A DNA stretch of 47,972 nt from a virus (Duplodnaviria > Heunggongvirae > Uroviricota > Caudoviricetes), in IMG/VR virus record IMGVR_UViG_2531839374_000006. One strand, 5' to 3'. The number at the start of each line of letters is the position of its first letter. Position 1 is the first letter of the stretch. Below, one piece after another: positions 32,601-38,600 of this stretch. Position numbers: made by a program.

Positions 32601-35600
32601 ACCTGTTCGATGGTGTCTGTATGGTTCCATACCCTCTTATTGCATATGCGAGACTCATTCTTACCTCCCATCTTACCGTTATCACCGTGTAGTGACACTG
32701 TTACATCCATGTATAAATGCTTTGATACTATGGCTATACCATTAAAATAAGTTTACCGGAAGACTTTGATCAACTACTTTTCACACCAGATACACAAATA
32801 ATGTGAAACACAACATAGAAATTGTCAAAACCGCCGGGTGGCGGGTGCGTTGAGGATGCCTGACACATCAGAGGTGGCGGGAGATTACTCCCCCACCTGG
32901 TCTCTTACTCCTCAGGTTCGTAGACTGTGAAGACAGCGACCTCCGTCTGGCCGGTTCGGATTCGTACCTCGCAGAGGTCTTTCCTCGTTACCAGTGCCGT
33001 CACTATGACGGTTAAACAGATGACGATCAGGGCGATTAACATCGCCTTTTGCTGCTTCATAGCCTGCTTCTCCTTGCCTTTCGGCACGTAAGAGGCTAAC
33101 CTACGTTTGTGAAGCATAGATTGGGCCTCAGATTAATGTTAAGCGTCTTGCAGGACGCGTAATGTTAACTGGGGCTTTTCTCTATCTGCCTTTTGGTGTT
33201 CATGCCTGAGGCAGATAGCCTCAAGCACCCATTATGATTTTAACCAAAGTCTTTATATCTATAAAGAGGCACAATATTACTCGATATATCATCATGTGTG
33301 CGCCTTATTCCAAACATTTTGGAAACAAAGCGTTCCCTCACTCCCGACATATCCAGTATCTGCTTCCAAGAAGATATATCCAGCAATTCAACTGCACAGG
33401 AAAGTAAGCGAGGTTTTTCCTCAGGGATTAACTCATCCCCCATCTCTCCTTTAATCGTCCCTCTTTTATTTAGATGGATAAATCCCGTTCTCATTTGTTG
33501 TGGCGTAATCAGCCCCAAAACCGTAGCACGATAAATACACATGCGAAGACTGATTTTCCATCGTTCTTTGAAATTAATTAGTGCATTCCAGTCAAGATGC
33601 GATCCTCGCATTTTAGGAAATTCATTAACGAACGAAACTCTAGGTACAAGGAATGCGCTCGAAAAATAATCCGCATGATGTTCTGTAATTTTATCCCCTG
33701 TTATAATCCCTTCATGCAAAACAAGATGCCCCAGTTCATGACCGAGATCTGAGCGAAATCGACACACACTCTTTTTCGCGGAATTTCTAATTATCAATGG
33801 GCGTTTACTATTAATAGTAAACGCATCAATACGATCATCCACGCCAGATACATGAGCAACAACAACCCCAATACTTTCCACGAAATTAACCATTGAAGAT
33901 ATCGGTCCCAGCCCCAACCCCCAATACCTTCTACAGGCCTCGGCAATTCTTTCAATATCTTCATCGGAGTTCAAAGGTAATCCGGACGTATCAGGAAAGT
34001 TCAATTCTGGAAGAACTATTTCTGTTTCCAAACACTTTACAAACTGCTCCAAAATTTCAGCTCGAGCCAGAATACTATTAGTTAAGGACTGCGTCCTTGA
34101 TCTCTTGCTTCTGAAATGGCAGTTCTCGCTGTCTAATGGTGATTTCCTTCCAGTGAAGAAAAACGACTCTTTAACATCCAGATAATCTGCAAGAGCTGTC
34201 AACATCTGAGATGAAGGGGGATAACCACGCTCTAACTTGTTTATAAATTGCCGAGTCACCCCCAAAGCAGTAGCAAGCTCTTCGCCCGTAACCCCTTTAG
34301 CCTGACGAGCTAATTTTAAGCAGTCACCACGATAATTACCTATAGAATCAAATAGTTCCATATTTATCACTATCTGCTTTTTTCGCATTCTTAACACGCC
34401 GCTGCAAATTCAGCGGTGGTGTTTCCACGGCCTCTGGCAATACGTCAGTATTAGCTGCTTGTACTGGAGCATGGACTTTAGACACCAATTCGTATCTACT
34501 CACTACATTATTTGATGAATCAAAACCTATCAGGGCTAAAAGCCACGTTGGAGGTTCGATATCTTCATCTTTTTTATTTGCAGATGGTAATTTTTCAGCC
34601 AGAACACGCCATGTAACATCATGTTCAAAATTAACATCATCTTCAAAAAGAGATAACTGACGACACTCAACATCATTTTTACATAAGCGATGTTTCTTTT
34701 TTGGTGAATCCAGTTTATCGGTCACAAACTGTAACGGCACCCTGTTCAGGGTAAACACAAAATTCAGAGGTGTTGAAAGAATCGCCACTCCTTTGAGTTT
34801 TTTATGATTTTTTACAAGAAAGTTTTTTATCCATCCATAGGCCCTACATCCATTAATCCAGTTATCATCATACTCATGGCGATGGAACCATAATTCGCCA
34901 AGTACGTTAGCAAATTGCTGAAGAAGATTGATAACAGATTTTTCATCCAAACAAGGATTGATTTCAAAACACGGTTGGAGATTCTGTTCAGACGGCATAA
35001 GGTATCCCTCTCTCTTAAAACTCCGCTCATCTTTACGCAAAATTTTATTTTTGTAAACCTAATCTTTGGGGTATTTCACGAATTCGTCAACCAGTTGAAC
35101 GAACTTTAACCACAATACATATTTATCTACATTGATATGAGTATCGCTAACACTATTGTGGGCATTCAGCTAAATAGCTGCGCTTAATACCGCTACACTT
35201 TTGCCAGTCCATGTTTGCCTCCGGGGAATGGGCTGACGGTTTCCATAAAATGGCGAACTTTTTTCAACAGTTGCCACATTGAGCGGCACTGATGATTACG
35301 CGTTATTGTGTCGTGAAGTGCCTGCCATAGCCGTTCAACATGATTCACCCATGGCGAGTAAACCGGCTGATAAATGCCCCTGAACTTCGGGTTCTCCTTC
35401 AGCCAGCTCTGTGTTTCCCGGCTTTTGTGGATAATGTAGTTGTCCACGATCAGCGTGATGGTTTTCGCCCGACGGTATGTCGCTTTAAGCCGCTTCAGCA
35501 GGCTGATGAACAGCGCCGAACTTTTGCTGTTGCCGCCCACATAGCTGACTTTACCTGTCCCGCTGTGCAGCGCTCCGGCCAGATAATATTTTTCATTCTG

Positions 35601-38600
35601 TCCCGGCGTGACCACCCGTTTTTGCTGTCCGCGCAGTTGCCAGTCCGCACCGATTTTGGGATGAAGATGGATATCCACTTCATCTTCATAAAAGACCTGA
35701 TGTTCTGCGCTGCATTCGTCCAGTGCTTTATGGATTGCTGCCATCTTTTCATCTTTATGCGGGTCACGGATACGCAGAGTTGGCGCAGCCCTTCGCCACA
35801 CAATCCCCGCAGACGGCAACCAGCGGCGAACGGTTCCGGCATTTAACTGGCAACCGGTTATCTCATTGATTTTTATTGCCAGCAGTTCTGTACTCCAGCG
35901 TGAACGCTGGTAGCCAAAGTCGCCGGGAGAATGTTTTACCAGCTCACGTAACAGTGTGCAGATATGCTCAAACGGCCAGCGACGGGCACGCCCGGCAGGT
36001 AATGATTTCAGTCCCTCAACACCCGACTGCGTGAACCAGTTAATCCAGCGTCCAACAGAGGAGCGGGCGCAGCAGAGCGTTCTGGCAACGTCGCTGACAC
36101 GGTCGCCCCGGTGCAGCATCAGCATGGCAGTCAGTCTGCGGGCATAATTTTTATCGTGTGTTTTATGGATGGCTTTCTGCATCAGGCGTCGTTCGTCACG
36201 GGAAATTGGTGCTATGATCGGCATTGCTCAGTCCGGTTGGTGATTTGTTTTGATTTGGCGATTGATCAGATCGCACAATCCGGGCTAAGTTCCCTCAAAG
36301 TGATCTACTATTCCGCGCAGCTATTTAGTATTACCAAGCCTTCAGGTGCGCGAAGTTGTTCCACACAGTGCAGCAGCGCATCAGTCGCTTCCTTAAGCGT
36401 CACAGTGTCGCCATCACCCAGTCCTGCAATTTTTGCGTGCCTGACAAACGCCGCGCAAAGGTCGTTAAACGCCCCTGCCCGCACATCCGCCAGGAAAGCA
36501 TTAGCAGCAGCCAATTCCTGGTAGTCAATCCTGCTCACTGCGCCGCCTCCTGAAAATTCCCCTGATAGAAAGCCAGTACACGCTGCATAACTTCGCTCTT
36601 CCTGCACTCGCGACAGATTATGTTCTGTCGTCTGTTGTAACGACGTATTTCGCCGTCTGGTAACGACCAGATAAGGTCCGGATCAACCACAGATGTTTTT
36701 TTCTTCAGTTTTGCCCTTGATAGTTTTTTGCGGGCGTTTTGCCAGTCCTTACGAGCCTGTTCAGAGGGAAATAACCCGTAGTCAGAGTTGTATACATCAC
36801 CACTGGCAACCAGCTCTCTGGCGAGAACGCTCAACAGATATCTTGTCGCACCTGTTTTCGCTTCCAGTTGCCGTAACGTCTCGCGACCGCTAAGACGTAC
36901 AAGTTCAACAACCCGCCCCTTTAATTTTTCCCGCTCTTCCTGTGTAAATACTTTTGCCATAAGCGCCTCCGGCAATCACTTTTCCGATGCAACACGGCGG
37001 GAAGAGTCGACAATCTGCCGGACAACGTCCCGGTGTTTATTCAGCTCCCGCAGCGCGGCGCAGACACGCTCCCACTTCTGGACATGACTTTTCGCCCGAC
37101 GCAGTTCGCGGTTTGCCATATGCAGCGATGGTAAAACCAGGTCATCCGCTCGCGTTTCGGTGAACAATGGCAGCGACTGCACAATGTCCGCCACCGTTTC
37201 TGTTTTAATATCTTCCTGTGTTGCAGCCTCCTGTACTGGTAATGCAACACCTGCGGGCTGAGGAAAGGCCTTACCATCAGTTTCCGCTACCGATGCTGCT
37301 TTCGGCTCTGCTGGTAAATTATCGCCCGGTATGCAGTAACGAAATTTACCGCCCTGATTTACGCGAATCAGACGACCTTTGCTGATTGCCATTGCCAGCG
37401 TTGAAGCCACTTTGCGTGATGTGGTACCAAACAATGTAGCCAGCTCATCAGCCGTTTGTGGTCCGCGTTGTTCAATCGTCGCGGTTAAATCGCACTCTGA
37501 GATTTTCGCTACTGTTGCTGTGGTGGTTTCTTCCGGCAGTTCTGCCTGCGCTGGCTGTTCCTGCTGAACGTTGTTATCAGCCACACGCCGGGTGTACGCG
37601 CTTTTATCAACAAAACCAGCCTTTTTCAGTTCCCATAGTTCGTTCAGCACTTCTTCACGACTGATATCAAGTCGCGCAGCAAGTTCTGTGGATGTGGCTT
37701 TTCCCATTGCTTTCAGTGCGTCAAAAACGGTTTCCATTAAAATTACCTCCGGTTTTGTTTTTCCAGCTTTTCAGCCAGCCTGGCTGCATCAATCATTTTT
37801 CTCAGATGAACCAGATTCTTCTGGTTTCGTGTTTTCTGCTCCGCCGTTTCCCCCGCCCGAACTGAAGCAGCGTTTTTTCCAGAACATCACAAAGTGACTG
37901 CATCAGAAATCCTCCGTCTGTGCGTAGGGTTTACGTGCCGGACCACCAAGTCTCAGACGTCTGGCAGCATCCTCTGCGCTGACATCAGTCACTGAACCGT
38001 TATCCATCAGGGCGTATGCTGTTCCTGTTGCTCCCTCCCTGTTCAGACGGAGAATCAGCTCCATAAGCTGAGAGTCTGCGTTACGGTTGTAGACAGCATC
38101 CCGGTACAACCCAATCCACACATCGCAATCCTGTTCAATCTGCCCGGTGTCGCGACTGTCGCTTGGTGTGGGGCGTTTATCTGCCCTGTCCTCGAGTTTT
38201 CGGTTAAGTTGCGTCAGAAGTAAAACCACGCAGTCCAGCTCTTTAGCGAGATTTTTTAAGCCCGTTGTGATATCCCCGAAAGCAATATCACGACGCTCCG
38301 CGGCTTCCGCCTTCATCAGCGTCAGGTAATCGATCGCCACAAGGCCGACAACACCACGCTGACGCTTAACCTTCCGGCATTCAGCGATCACATGGGCCAG
38401 CGTTACCCCTGGTGTGCTGTCAATCATCAGGTTTGATTCTGCCAGTTCTGCGGCTTTCGCCATCGCCCGCGCCATATCCGAGTCATCACTGGCACCGACA
38501 TAAAAAATTTCAGAATTTACCCTCGCCTCCTGCGCAACCATGCGCTCAACCAGGCTGCGATCTGTCATTTCCAGGGTGAATACCAGTGTGGGCAGACGAT

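What the first reader, a model, noticed from the sequence alone, without database searches (positions are those of the whole stretch)
35171..36327. IS630 inserted at a CTAG site, replacing the last five codons of a nin-region gene
The 1153-bp element is bounded by duplicated TA, and the joined flanks give CTAG, the IS630 target preference. The insertion point is five codons before the native stop of ORF 36607-36329, so the protein is barely altered. The insertion does, however, separate the upstream phage operon from the island operon starting at 34998 and could change its transcription.
Basis: seen in the sequence. Interest (0 to 1): 0.4.

Follow-up and report, generated by a model that had tools for sequence, protein, structure and literature searches.

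The report
IS630 insertion in a Shigella prophage
This is an ordinary, intact copy of the well-known insertion sequence IS630 that recently inserted into its usual CTAG target at the tail of a small prophage gene, just upstream of a RosmerTA toxin-antitoxin defence operon, with no sign in the sequence that it damaged either.

Summary
Window 35173-36325 is a 1153-bp IS630 copy. It is 99.9% identical to RefSeq-annotated IS630, has terminal inverted repeats, and carries an intact 343-aa HTH+DDE transposase on the minus strand. It is flanked by TA at 35171-2 and 36326-7.

Near-identical IS-free prophages carry a single TA inside CTAG at exactly this point. Five other IS630 copies I checked also sit in CTA|...|TAG.

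The interrupted gene is a 76-aa ORF (36538-36308, minus strand; PHROG 27745; similar to the C-terminal part of Ead/Ea22/EaE-like proteins). Its end changes from ...VILAECPQ* to ...VILNSCAE*, with the length unchanged.

It is 100% identical to the IS-free relative, and the IS lies 174 nt upstream of its start codon.

The window is contig AMGB01000061.1 from a Shigella-type genome. The same insertion appears in two other read sets but in none of 5,426 complete E. coli genomes.

Any effect on transcription is untested. Scans found no convincing promoter or terminator. The finding is known biology of low interest.

The parts
35171..35172 (.). Left copy of the duplicated TA target (C at 35170 completes the CTA half-site)
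   Evidence: a single TA is present in IS-free relatives
35173..36325 (-). IS630, 1153 bp, complete; transposase reads on the minus strand, the same direction as the phage early-right genes
   Evidence: 99.9% identity over its full length to annotated IS630; differs by 1-4 nt from copies L012-L014 and L016
36309..36325 (-). IRL, the transposase-proximal terminal inverted repeat (AATAGCTGCGCGGAATA on the minus strand); supplies codons NSCAE plus a stop to the interrupted gene
35173..35189 (+). IRR, the transposase-distal terminal inverted repeat (AATAGCTGCGCTTAATA)
35193..36224 (-). IS630 transposase ORF, 343 aa, with N-terminal HTH domains and a DDE_3 catalytic domain; carries G283 where four other copies have V283
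   Evidence: Pfam DDE_3 2.6e-23 plus HTH_23/32/29; NCBIfam NF033545 255 bits against a cutoff of 100; variant residue; candidate D181/D261/E297 by inspection
36326..36327 (.). Right copy of the duplicated TA target (G at 36328 completes the TAG half-site)
36308..36538 (-). Interrupted 76-aa gene, now chimeric (…VILNSCAE*); the last 5 codons and the stop (36325-36308) come from IS630
   Evidence: the exact chimeric protein is called in L002/L003; PHROG 27745 1.5e-51; tblastn hits to Ead/Ea22/EaE-like genes
35153..35170 (-). Displaced native 3' end of the 76-aa gene (codons AECPQ plus TAG)
34999..35152 (-). AT-rich 154-nt spacer upstream of rmrT, left intact by the insertion; contains the palindrome ACGAATTCGT (around 35078-35087); presumed but unproven site of the operon's own promoter/operator
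   Evidence: GC about 0.36; palindrome I10; identical to IS-free L004; no strong promoter match
34348..34998 (-). rmrT-like gene (216 aa), predicted toxin of a RosmerTA-type system
   Evidence: PADLOC RmrT 1.4e-18, profile positions 9-197 of 198; PHROG 5786; coordinates
33240..34361 (-). rmrA-like gene (373 aa): XRE-type HTH plus M78/ImmA-IrrE Zn-peptidase (HELGH at residue 208), predicted antitoxin/repressor; overlaps rmrT by 14 nt
   Evidence: PADLOC RmrA 5.7e-107; Pfam HTH_3 and Peptidase_M78; HExxH motif
36535..36960 (-). Upstream DUF977 / Ren-like gene (141 aa) whose stop overlaps the GTG start of the 76-aa gene
   Evidence: Pfam DUF977 6.1e-31; PHROG 142 'Ren-like exclusion protein'

Best explanation
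**What it is.** A complete IS630 copy transposed recently into a lambdoid/Rac-like prophage of a Shigella-type genome. The known mechanism for the IS630/Tc1/mariner family applies. A DDE transposase excises the element by double-strand cuts and inserts it at a TA dinucleotide, duplicating the TA. IS630 itself strongly prefers the TA inside 5'-CTAG-3'.

**Where it landed.** The hit CTAG lay 15 nt before the stop codon of a 76-aa gene. IS630 ends carry stop codons in all three frames within six codons of the TA. The gene therefore loses AECPQ, gains NSCAE, and keeps its length.

**Downstream operon.** The element sits 174 nt upstream of a RosmerTA-type toxin-antitoxin defence operon, leaving that operon and its 154-nt upstream spacer untouched.

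**Shown:** element identity, exact junctions, target duplication, ancestral empty site, the C-terminal swap, intactness of the neighbouring genes, and recency of the event.

**Inferred:** the insertion is close to neutral. The transposase gene now lies in the phage early-right transcription unit in the sense orientation, so it may be co-transcribed on induction. Transcription leaving the transposase gene could read into rmrT. None of this is measurable from sequence.
For: - **Identity:** 99.9% over 1153 bp to annotated IS630. The transposase passes NCBIfam IS630 (255 bits against a cutoff of 100) and Pfam DDE_3 plus HTH.
- **Empty site:** CTAG with a single TA in L001 and L004-L011. The flank alignments overlap by exactly 2 nt.
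- **Target choice:** five other copies are flanked CTA|..|TAG. CTAG holds only 11 of 2082 TA sites (one search lists the 10 still present).
- **Protein change:** native and chimeric C-termini. Both exact 76-aa proteins exist in public data.
- **Low conservation of the replaced tail:** more distant homologues stop aligning at residues 62-71 of 76.
- **Recency:** the flanks are 100% identical to L004 over 2040 nt on the rmrTA side. On the other side they differ by 2 substitutions and 2 homopolymer indels in about 4.7 kb.
- **Stops at IS ends:** stop codons in all three frames at both ends.
- **Mechanism from the literature:** TA duplication and cut-and-paste in the IS630 family, and the CTAG preference of IS630, are described or cited in PMC2170065 and PMC6811581.
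Against: - Nothing contradicts the structural account.
- The 'near-neutral' part is untested. The last five residues of the 76-aa protein are invariant among close relatives, so they could matter.
- The 1.15-kb insert could exert polarity on, or feed transcription into, rmrTA.
- The transposase carries G283 in a hydrophobic strand just before the YSPxxN..E motif, where four other copies have V. Its activity is unknown.
Confidence: 0.92

Rival explanations
1. The insertion matters for the RosmerTA operon. It either shields rmrTA from phage early-right (pR) read-through by polarity in the untranslated IS stretches, or adds constitutive transcription from the transposase promoter or a weak outward promoter in the IS end. 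Either way the toxin/antitoxin dosage and defence phenotype would change.
For: - The IS lies 174 nt upstream of rmrT in the same orientation.
- No intrinsic terminator is predicted on the minus strand between the transposase stop and rmrT.
- A weak outward -35/-10 candidate (TGGACT-16-TATTAA, 35211-35184) sits in the IS end.
- Co-transcription of a transposase gene with downstream genes is reported for the IS630-family element ISFtu1 (review PMC9330008).
Against: - Promoter-like and terminator-like hits in the region do not exceed shuffled expectation.
- The structure between the IS and rmrT is unremarkable (z = -1.28).
- The AT-rich 154-nt spacer that would hold the operon's own promoter/operator is intact and identical to IS-free relatives.
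- rmrTA shows no compensatory or inactivating change.
Confidence: 0.15
2. The insertion cripples the prophage. Placing 1.15 kb between the replication genes and the Q-like antiterminator would lower late-gene expression and help lock the prophage in place, as part of IS-driven prophage decay in Shigella.
For: - The IS sits between the DnaB/DUF1627/DUF977 genes and the DUF1367/DUF1133 (Q-like) genes on one strand.
- The window also shows a frameshifted replication-initiator gene.
Against: - The native arrangement already has a strong intrinsic terminator on this strand before Q (31611-31592) and a moron with its own signals. Q expression therefore cannot depend on unimpeded read-through alone.
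- The frameshift is absent from another IS-bearing sample (L003).
- The transposase ORF is translated in the sense direction, which limits Rho-dependent polarity (inference).
Confidence: 0.1
3. Assembly artefact: a repeated IS630 was misplaced here in a draft assembly.
For: The source is a draft contig, AMGB01000061.1. IS630 is multicopy in Shigella-type genomes and their invasion plasmids.
Against: - Both junctions show a precise TA duplication at a CTAG that is intact in relatives. A misjoin would not produce this.
- Two other assemblies (L002 from SRR061723, L003 from ERR048277) contain the same right junction running 55 nt into the IS.
- L003 differs at two homopolymers, so it is an independent sample.
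Confidence: 0.02

Closest known systems
IS630 of Shigella sonnei (IS630/Tc1/mariner superfamily; Matsutani et al. 1987, Tenzen et al. 1990, Tenzen & Ohtsubo 1991, cited from memory and via the reference lists in PMC2170065 and PMC6811581)
   Same: - 1153-bp length
- Terminal inverted repeats
- Single 343-aa HTH+DDE transposase
- TA duplication and CTAG target
- 99.9% nucleotide identity to copies annotated as IS630
   Different: One amino-acid difference (G283 instead of V283) from the commonest copies. The same variant also sits upstream of ipaH7.8 on invasion plasmids of S. boydii and S. dysenteriae.
IS630 insertion into fliC at CTAG in Shigella sonnei (PMC6811581)
   Same: The same element uses the same target motif within a coding sequence of a Shigella lineage.
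   Different: There the insertion inactivates the gene and seeds a deletion. Here it hits the last five codons and leaves an equal-length product.
RosmerTA defence system (Millman et al. 2022; bioRxiv 10.1101/2022.05.11.491447), for the operon downstream of the IS
   Same: Two-gene operon. The toxin is of unknown function and the antitoxin carries a Zn-peptidase (M78) with an HTH domain. There are strong PADLOC RmrA and RmrT matches.
   Different: Not tested for defence here. The NCBIfam 'spr1629 family repressor/antitoxin' match is below its cutoff (162 against 335 bits). The pair is carried in the nin-equivalent region of a prophage next to hok/sok.
ISFtu1 (IS630 family) co-transcription with downstream genes in Francisella tularensis (as reviewed in PMC9330008)
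   Same: An IS630-family element lies upstream of, and co-oriented with, host genes, giving a precedent for read-through from the transposase gene.
   Different: No transcript data exist for this locus, and IS630 proper is a different element.

Membership tests
IS630 (the named insertion sequence) | About 1153-bp element with imperfect terminal inverted repeats | tested here: met
   35173-36325 is 1153 bp. Both ends begin AATAGCTGCGC, with 15 of 17 positions matching.
IS630 (the named insertion sequence) | Nucleotide identity above 95% to recognised IS630 copies | tested here: met
   99.9% over the full length to RefSeq features named 'IS630-like element IS630 family transposase'.
IS630 (the named insertion sequence) | Single transposase ORF with N-terminal HTH and a DDE catalytic domain | tested here: met
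   343-aa ORF. Pfam HTH_23/HTH_32/HTH_29 plus DDE_3. NCBIfam NF033545 scores 255 bits against a cutoff of 100. Candidate D181/D261/E297 were located by inspection only.
IS630 (the named insertion sequence) | Duplication of a TA target dinucleotide | tested here: met
   TA lies on both sides. IS-free relatives have a single TA, and the flank alignments overlap by exactly 2 nt.
IS630 (the named insertion sequence) | Preference for the TA within 5'-CTAG-3' | tested here: met
   The joined flanks and the empty sites read CTAG. Five of five other copies lie in CTAG. CTAG holds 0.5% of TA sites.
IS630 (the named insertion sequence) | Transposition competence of this copy | not testable with these tools
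   The ORF and both ends are intact. The G283 variant occurs at two or more loci, which is compatible with activity or with mobilisation in trans.
Lambda nin-region genes (ninA-ninI) | Sequence homology to a nin gene family | tested here: not met
   No Pfam or NCBIfam hit. The best matches are PHROG 27745 (function unknown) and the C-terminal parts of Ead/Ea22/EaE-like proteins.
Lambda nin-region genes (ninA-ninI) | Position between the replication/ren genes and the Q antiterminator | tested here: met
   Gene order on the minus strand is DnaB helicase, DUF1627, DUF977 (Ren-like), the 76-aa gene, a stretch of further genes, then DUF1367, DUF1133/antitermQ.
RosmerTA (downstream operon) | Two adjacent co-oriented genes: a toxin of unknown function and an antitoxin with a Zn-peptidase | tested here: met
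   rmrT-like 34998-34348 and rmrA-like 34361-33240 overlap by 14 nt. HTH_3 plus Peptidase_M78 with HELGH. System description.
RosmerTA (downstream operon) | Match to the PADLOC RmrT and RmrA profiles | tested here: met
   RmrA 5.7e-107 (356 bits). RmrT 1.4e-18 over profile positions 9-197 of 198.
RosmerTA (downstream operon) | Toxicity neutralised by the partner, and protection against phages | not testable with these tools

The most novel reading that the evidence does not exclude
The IS630 copy has been kept in this Shigella lineage because it rewires expression. It would place its transposase under the prophage's induction-dependent early-right transcription. It would also insulate or drive the adjacent RosmerTA defence operon, through transposase-promoter read-through or a weak outward promoter. 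The IS would then act as a regulatory switch for a prophage-borne defence system.
Probability: 0.08. Interest if true: 0.35.

Novelty: already known. Interest (0 to 1): 0.1.

Why it matters
It matters little beyond annotation.

- **Annotation.** It is a clean, base-exact example of IS630 target choice (TA in CTAG) and of IS expansion in Shigella prophages. It also corrects the local annotation. The hit gene is a 76-aa Ead/Ea22-C-terminal-like ORF that survives at equal length. The neighbouring 'island' is a RosmerTA-type defence/TA operon next to hok/sok.
- **Possible use.** The locus offers a natural IS-plus / IS-minus pair, about 99.9% identical, for asking whether an IS630 insertion upstream changes expression of a prophage-borne defence system. 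That would be a small, testable side question.

Tried and rejected
- **Junction scan of species-representative genomes.** An exact left-junction pattern found 0 hits. This was uninformative.
- **Literature search for the source.** Searching AMGB01/AMGB00000000, GCA_000296305, SRR061723 and ERR048277 found nothing. The organism is inferred only from three clues:
  - the ipaH gene;
  - the transposase's source names, Shigella / S. boydii;
  - the second G283 locus on S. boydii/dysenteriae invasion plasmids.
- **Primary IS630 papers.** PMC213363 and PMC208372 are not held. They are cited only through other papers' reference lists.
- **Promoter and terminator scans** of 34300-37000, plus a more permissive scan of my own, gave nothing above shuffled expectation. 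Folding the IS-to-rmrT interval gave z = -1.28. I therefore make no call on transcription.
- **Alternative contexts for the Rosmer island.** I looked for them in E. coli to delimit its promoter. All 31 genomes with the island have the same upstream gene, so no boundary could be drawn.
I rejected 36607. All gene calls and the SD/overlap geometry favour 36538.
- **ISEc33 as the identity.** I considered and rejected a related IS such as ISEc33, which falls in the same 90% protein cluster. Nucleotide identity to IS630-named copies is 99.9%.
- **Expensive searches.** The large protein-database and structure-prediction tools were not used. The answer did not require them.
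Full report
**Check of the observation**

The sequence at 35160-35190 reads ...GGGCATTCAGC-TA-AATAGCTGCGCTTAATACC.... At 36305-36345 it reads ...TATTCCGCGCAGCTATT-TA-GTATTACCAAGC.... The element between the two TAs is 35173-36325, exactly 1153 bp. Both ends begin AATAGCTGCGC. The repeat finder reports terminal arms 35170-35189 / 36309-36328 at 90% complementarity.

One ORF fills the element on the minus strand: 36224-35193, 343 aa. It carries N-terminal HTH domains and a DDE_3 domain. It passes the NCBIfam IS630 transposase model at 255 bits against a cutoff of 100.

**Identity**

Megablast of the 1153 bp against 5,426 complete E. coli genomes finds full-length copies at 99.9% identity. 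They are annotated 'IS630-like element IS630 family transposase'. I pulled four of these copies (L012-L015) and a fifth from a Shigella-type invasion plasmid (L016). All start and end at the same bases as inferred here. All are flanked CTA|IS|TAG.

**Empty site**

A synthetic IS-free query (flanks joined through one TA) matches 31 E. coli genomes colinearly over 100% of its length. In L001 the site reads ATTCAGC-TA-GTATTACC.

Closer relatives were found through the exact native protein. In L004, L005 and L007-L010 the right flank is 99.85-99.92% identical and the left flank is 99-100% identical. The two alignments overlap in the relative by exactly two bases, the TA. This is direct evidence for a TA duplication at CTAG.

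CTAG is rare here: 11 of the 2082 TA dinucleotides in the IS-free window (one search lists the 10 still present). Its use by all six copies examined is therefore not chance. It agrees with the published CTAG preference of IS630 (cited).

**The interrupted gene**

The longest ORF runs 36607-36308. Every gene call in related contigs, however, starts at the GTG at 36538. That start has GGAGG 7 nt upstream and a GTGA overlap with the stop of the preceding DUF977 gene, giving 76 aa.

The native product ends ...VILAECPQ*. The product in the window ends ...VILNSCAE*, because the IS630 end contributes AAT AGC TGC GCG GAA TAG. Both exact sequences are in public data.

The protein matches PHROG 27745 over its full length (1.5e-51). 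It matches the C-terminal parts of Ead/Ea22/EaE-like phage proteins more weakly. Those more distant alignments stop at residues 62-71 of 76, so the replaced tail is not conserved at that distance. Among close relatives it is invariant.

The gene has no homology to lambda nin genes. 'nin-region' is correct only as a position, after a Ren-like DUF977 gene and before the Q-like genes.

Both IS630 ends carry stops in all three frames within six codons of the TA. Any ORF hit by IS630 therefore gains at most five foreign residues.

**What lies downstream**

- The first gene is a 216-aa protein, 34998-34348.
- The second is a 373-aa protein, 34361-33240, with an XRE-type HTH and an M78 Zn-peptidase domain (HELGH at residue 208).
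- The two genes overlap by 14 nt.

They match the PADLOC RmrT (1.4e-18) and RmrA (5.7e-107) profiles. That makes the pair a RosmerTA-type system, described as a toxin of unknown function with a Zn-peptidase antitoxin that defends against phages.

The unit is AT-rich, with GC about 0.36-0.42 against about 0.52 for the flanking phage genes. A hok/sok module follows it.

The IS end lies 174 nt upstream of the rmrT ATG. The 154-nt native spacer is untouched. From 35172 down to 33133 the window is 100% identical to IS-free L004.

**Source and spread**

Locus L017 (AMGB01000061.1, assembly GCA_000296305.1) is 100% identical to the window at the same coordinates, so the window is that contig.

Three clues point to a Shigella-type host, most likely S. 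boydii or S. dysenteriae. This is inferred, not looked up.
- An ipaH-type effector gene lies at 779-2542.
- The exact transposase is named by its sources as Shigella / S. boydii.
- A second locus carries the same G283 variant, upstream of ipaH7.8 on S. boydii/dysenteriae invasion plasmids.

The same right junction occurs in two short-read assemblies, SRR061723 and ERR048277. The second of these differs from the window at two homopolymers, so it is an independent sample. None of the 5,426 complete E. coli genomes has the insertion. Neither does any GTDB species-representative genome.

**Age**

The flanks are nearly identical to IS-free relatives and the neighbouring genes are intact. The insertion is therefore recent.

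**Mechanism and consequences**

The structural account is IS630/Tc1/mariner cut-and-paste transposition into TA with duplication of the TA (for the family mechanism).

Functional consequences are inference only. The transposase gene is co-oriented with the phage early-right operon, which has a pR-like site near 40880-40852. It is also co-oriented with rmrTA. Early-right transcripts would therefore traverse the IS in the sense direction, and transcription leaving the transposase gene could enter rmrT. Family precedent for such co-transcription exists for ISFtu1.

Sequence signals do not decide the matter.
- Consensus scans find no minus-strand promoter or terminator between 36600 and 35000 beyond shuffled expectation.
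- My more permissive scan gives only weak candidates. One is an outward-facing candidate inside the IS end.
- The IS-to-rmrT interval folds no better than shuffles (z = -1.28).
- A strong intrinsic terminator already lies between this region and the Q-like gene, at 31611-31592. Late-gene expression therefore cannot depend on unimpeded read-through alone.

I conclude that the insertion is most likely near-neutral.

**Transposase variant**

The window copy has G283 where four other copies have V283. By inspection this residue lies between the second catalytic D (D261) and the E (E297), in the stretch FR[V/G]IYQPVYSPWVNHVE. Whether it affects activity is unknown. The variant occurs at two distinct loci, each with intact ends and a CTAG target.

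**Verdict**

The observation and its interpretation are correct. The feature is a textbook IS630 insertion. The only added value is the identification of the neighbours: an Ead/Ea22-C-terminal-like 76-aa gene upstream and a RosmerTA defence operon downstream. There are also near-identical IS-free comparators that would make the speculative transcription question easy to test.

Noticed in passing
window 33240-34998 (- strand): The AT-rich two-gene 'island' matches the PADLOC RmrT and RmrA profiles. It is a RosmerTA-type toxin-antitoxin/anti-phage defence system carried in the nin-equivalent region of the prophage. It is present in only 31 of 5,426 complete E. coli genomes, always in this same context.
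   Followed up: partly
window ~39596 and ~37855: There are two single-base homopolymer contractions relative to all IS-free relatives and to L003: A6 to A5 and G6 to G5. The first splits the HTH_36/DnaD_N replication-initiator gene (251 aa in L004) into 174-aa and 80-aa ORFs. This is either real prophage decay in this strain or a homopolymer sequencing error. SRR061723 shares both contractions and ERR048277 has neither.
   Followed up: partly
window 31559-32840 (- strand): This segment is not shared with the closest IS-free relative, which has 337 bp at the same place where the window has 1282 bp. It holds a 68-aa ORF (32657-32452) and a 272-aa ORF (32449-31631; PHROG 3630; no Pfam, PADLOC or NCBIfam hit; its N-terminus looks hydrophobic). 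Terminator-like hairpins bound it, so it looks like a separate moron of unknown function.
   Followed up: partly
window 32905-33230 (- strand): A hok/sok type I toxin-antitoxin module lies immediately downstream of rmrA. The sok RNA is Rfam RF01794 at 120 bits (33230-33055), and the hok ORF lies at about 33060-32905. It diverges from L004 far more than the adjacent rmrTA does: 22 of the 23 differences on that flank fall here.
   Followed up: no
window 779-2542 (+ strand): An IpaH-family type III effector gene (LRR_TTSS plus NEL E3-ligase domain) lies beside the tail-fibre genes at the prophage end. This marks the host as Shigella or EIEC.
   Followed up: no
window 29558-29868 (- strand): A cluster of four tRNA genes, Gly(tcc), Thr(tgt), Arg(tct) and Met(cat), lies just downstream of the Q-like antiterminator gene. 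This is typical of lambdoid/Stx-type prophages.
   Followed up: no
window 35377 (codon 283 of the transposase); L016 2400-3552: The IS630 transposase has G283 instead of the V283 seen in four other copies. The same variant sits upstream of ipaH7.8 on S. boydii/dysenteriae invasion plasmids, again in a CTAG target. That plasmid copy may be the donor.
   Followed up: partly
window 36219-36305 (- strand, IS630 5' region): Four GATC (Dam) sites cluster in the roughly 100 nt between the IS630 IRL and the transposase start codon (36305, 36272, 36267, 36219). This recalls the Dam-regulated promoters and ends of other insertion sequences.
   Followed up: no
window 35173-35215 and 36283-36325: Both IS630 ends carry stop codons in all three inward reading frames within six codons of the flanking TA. 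Any ORF the element interrupts is therefore terminated almost at once.
   Followed up: yes
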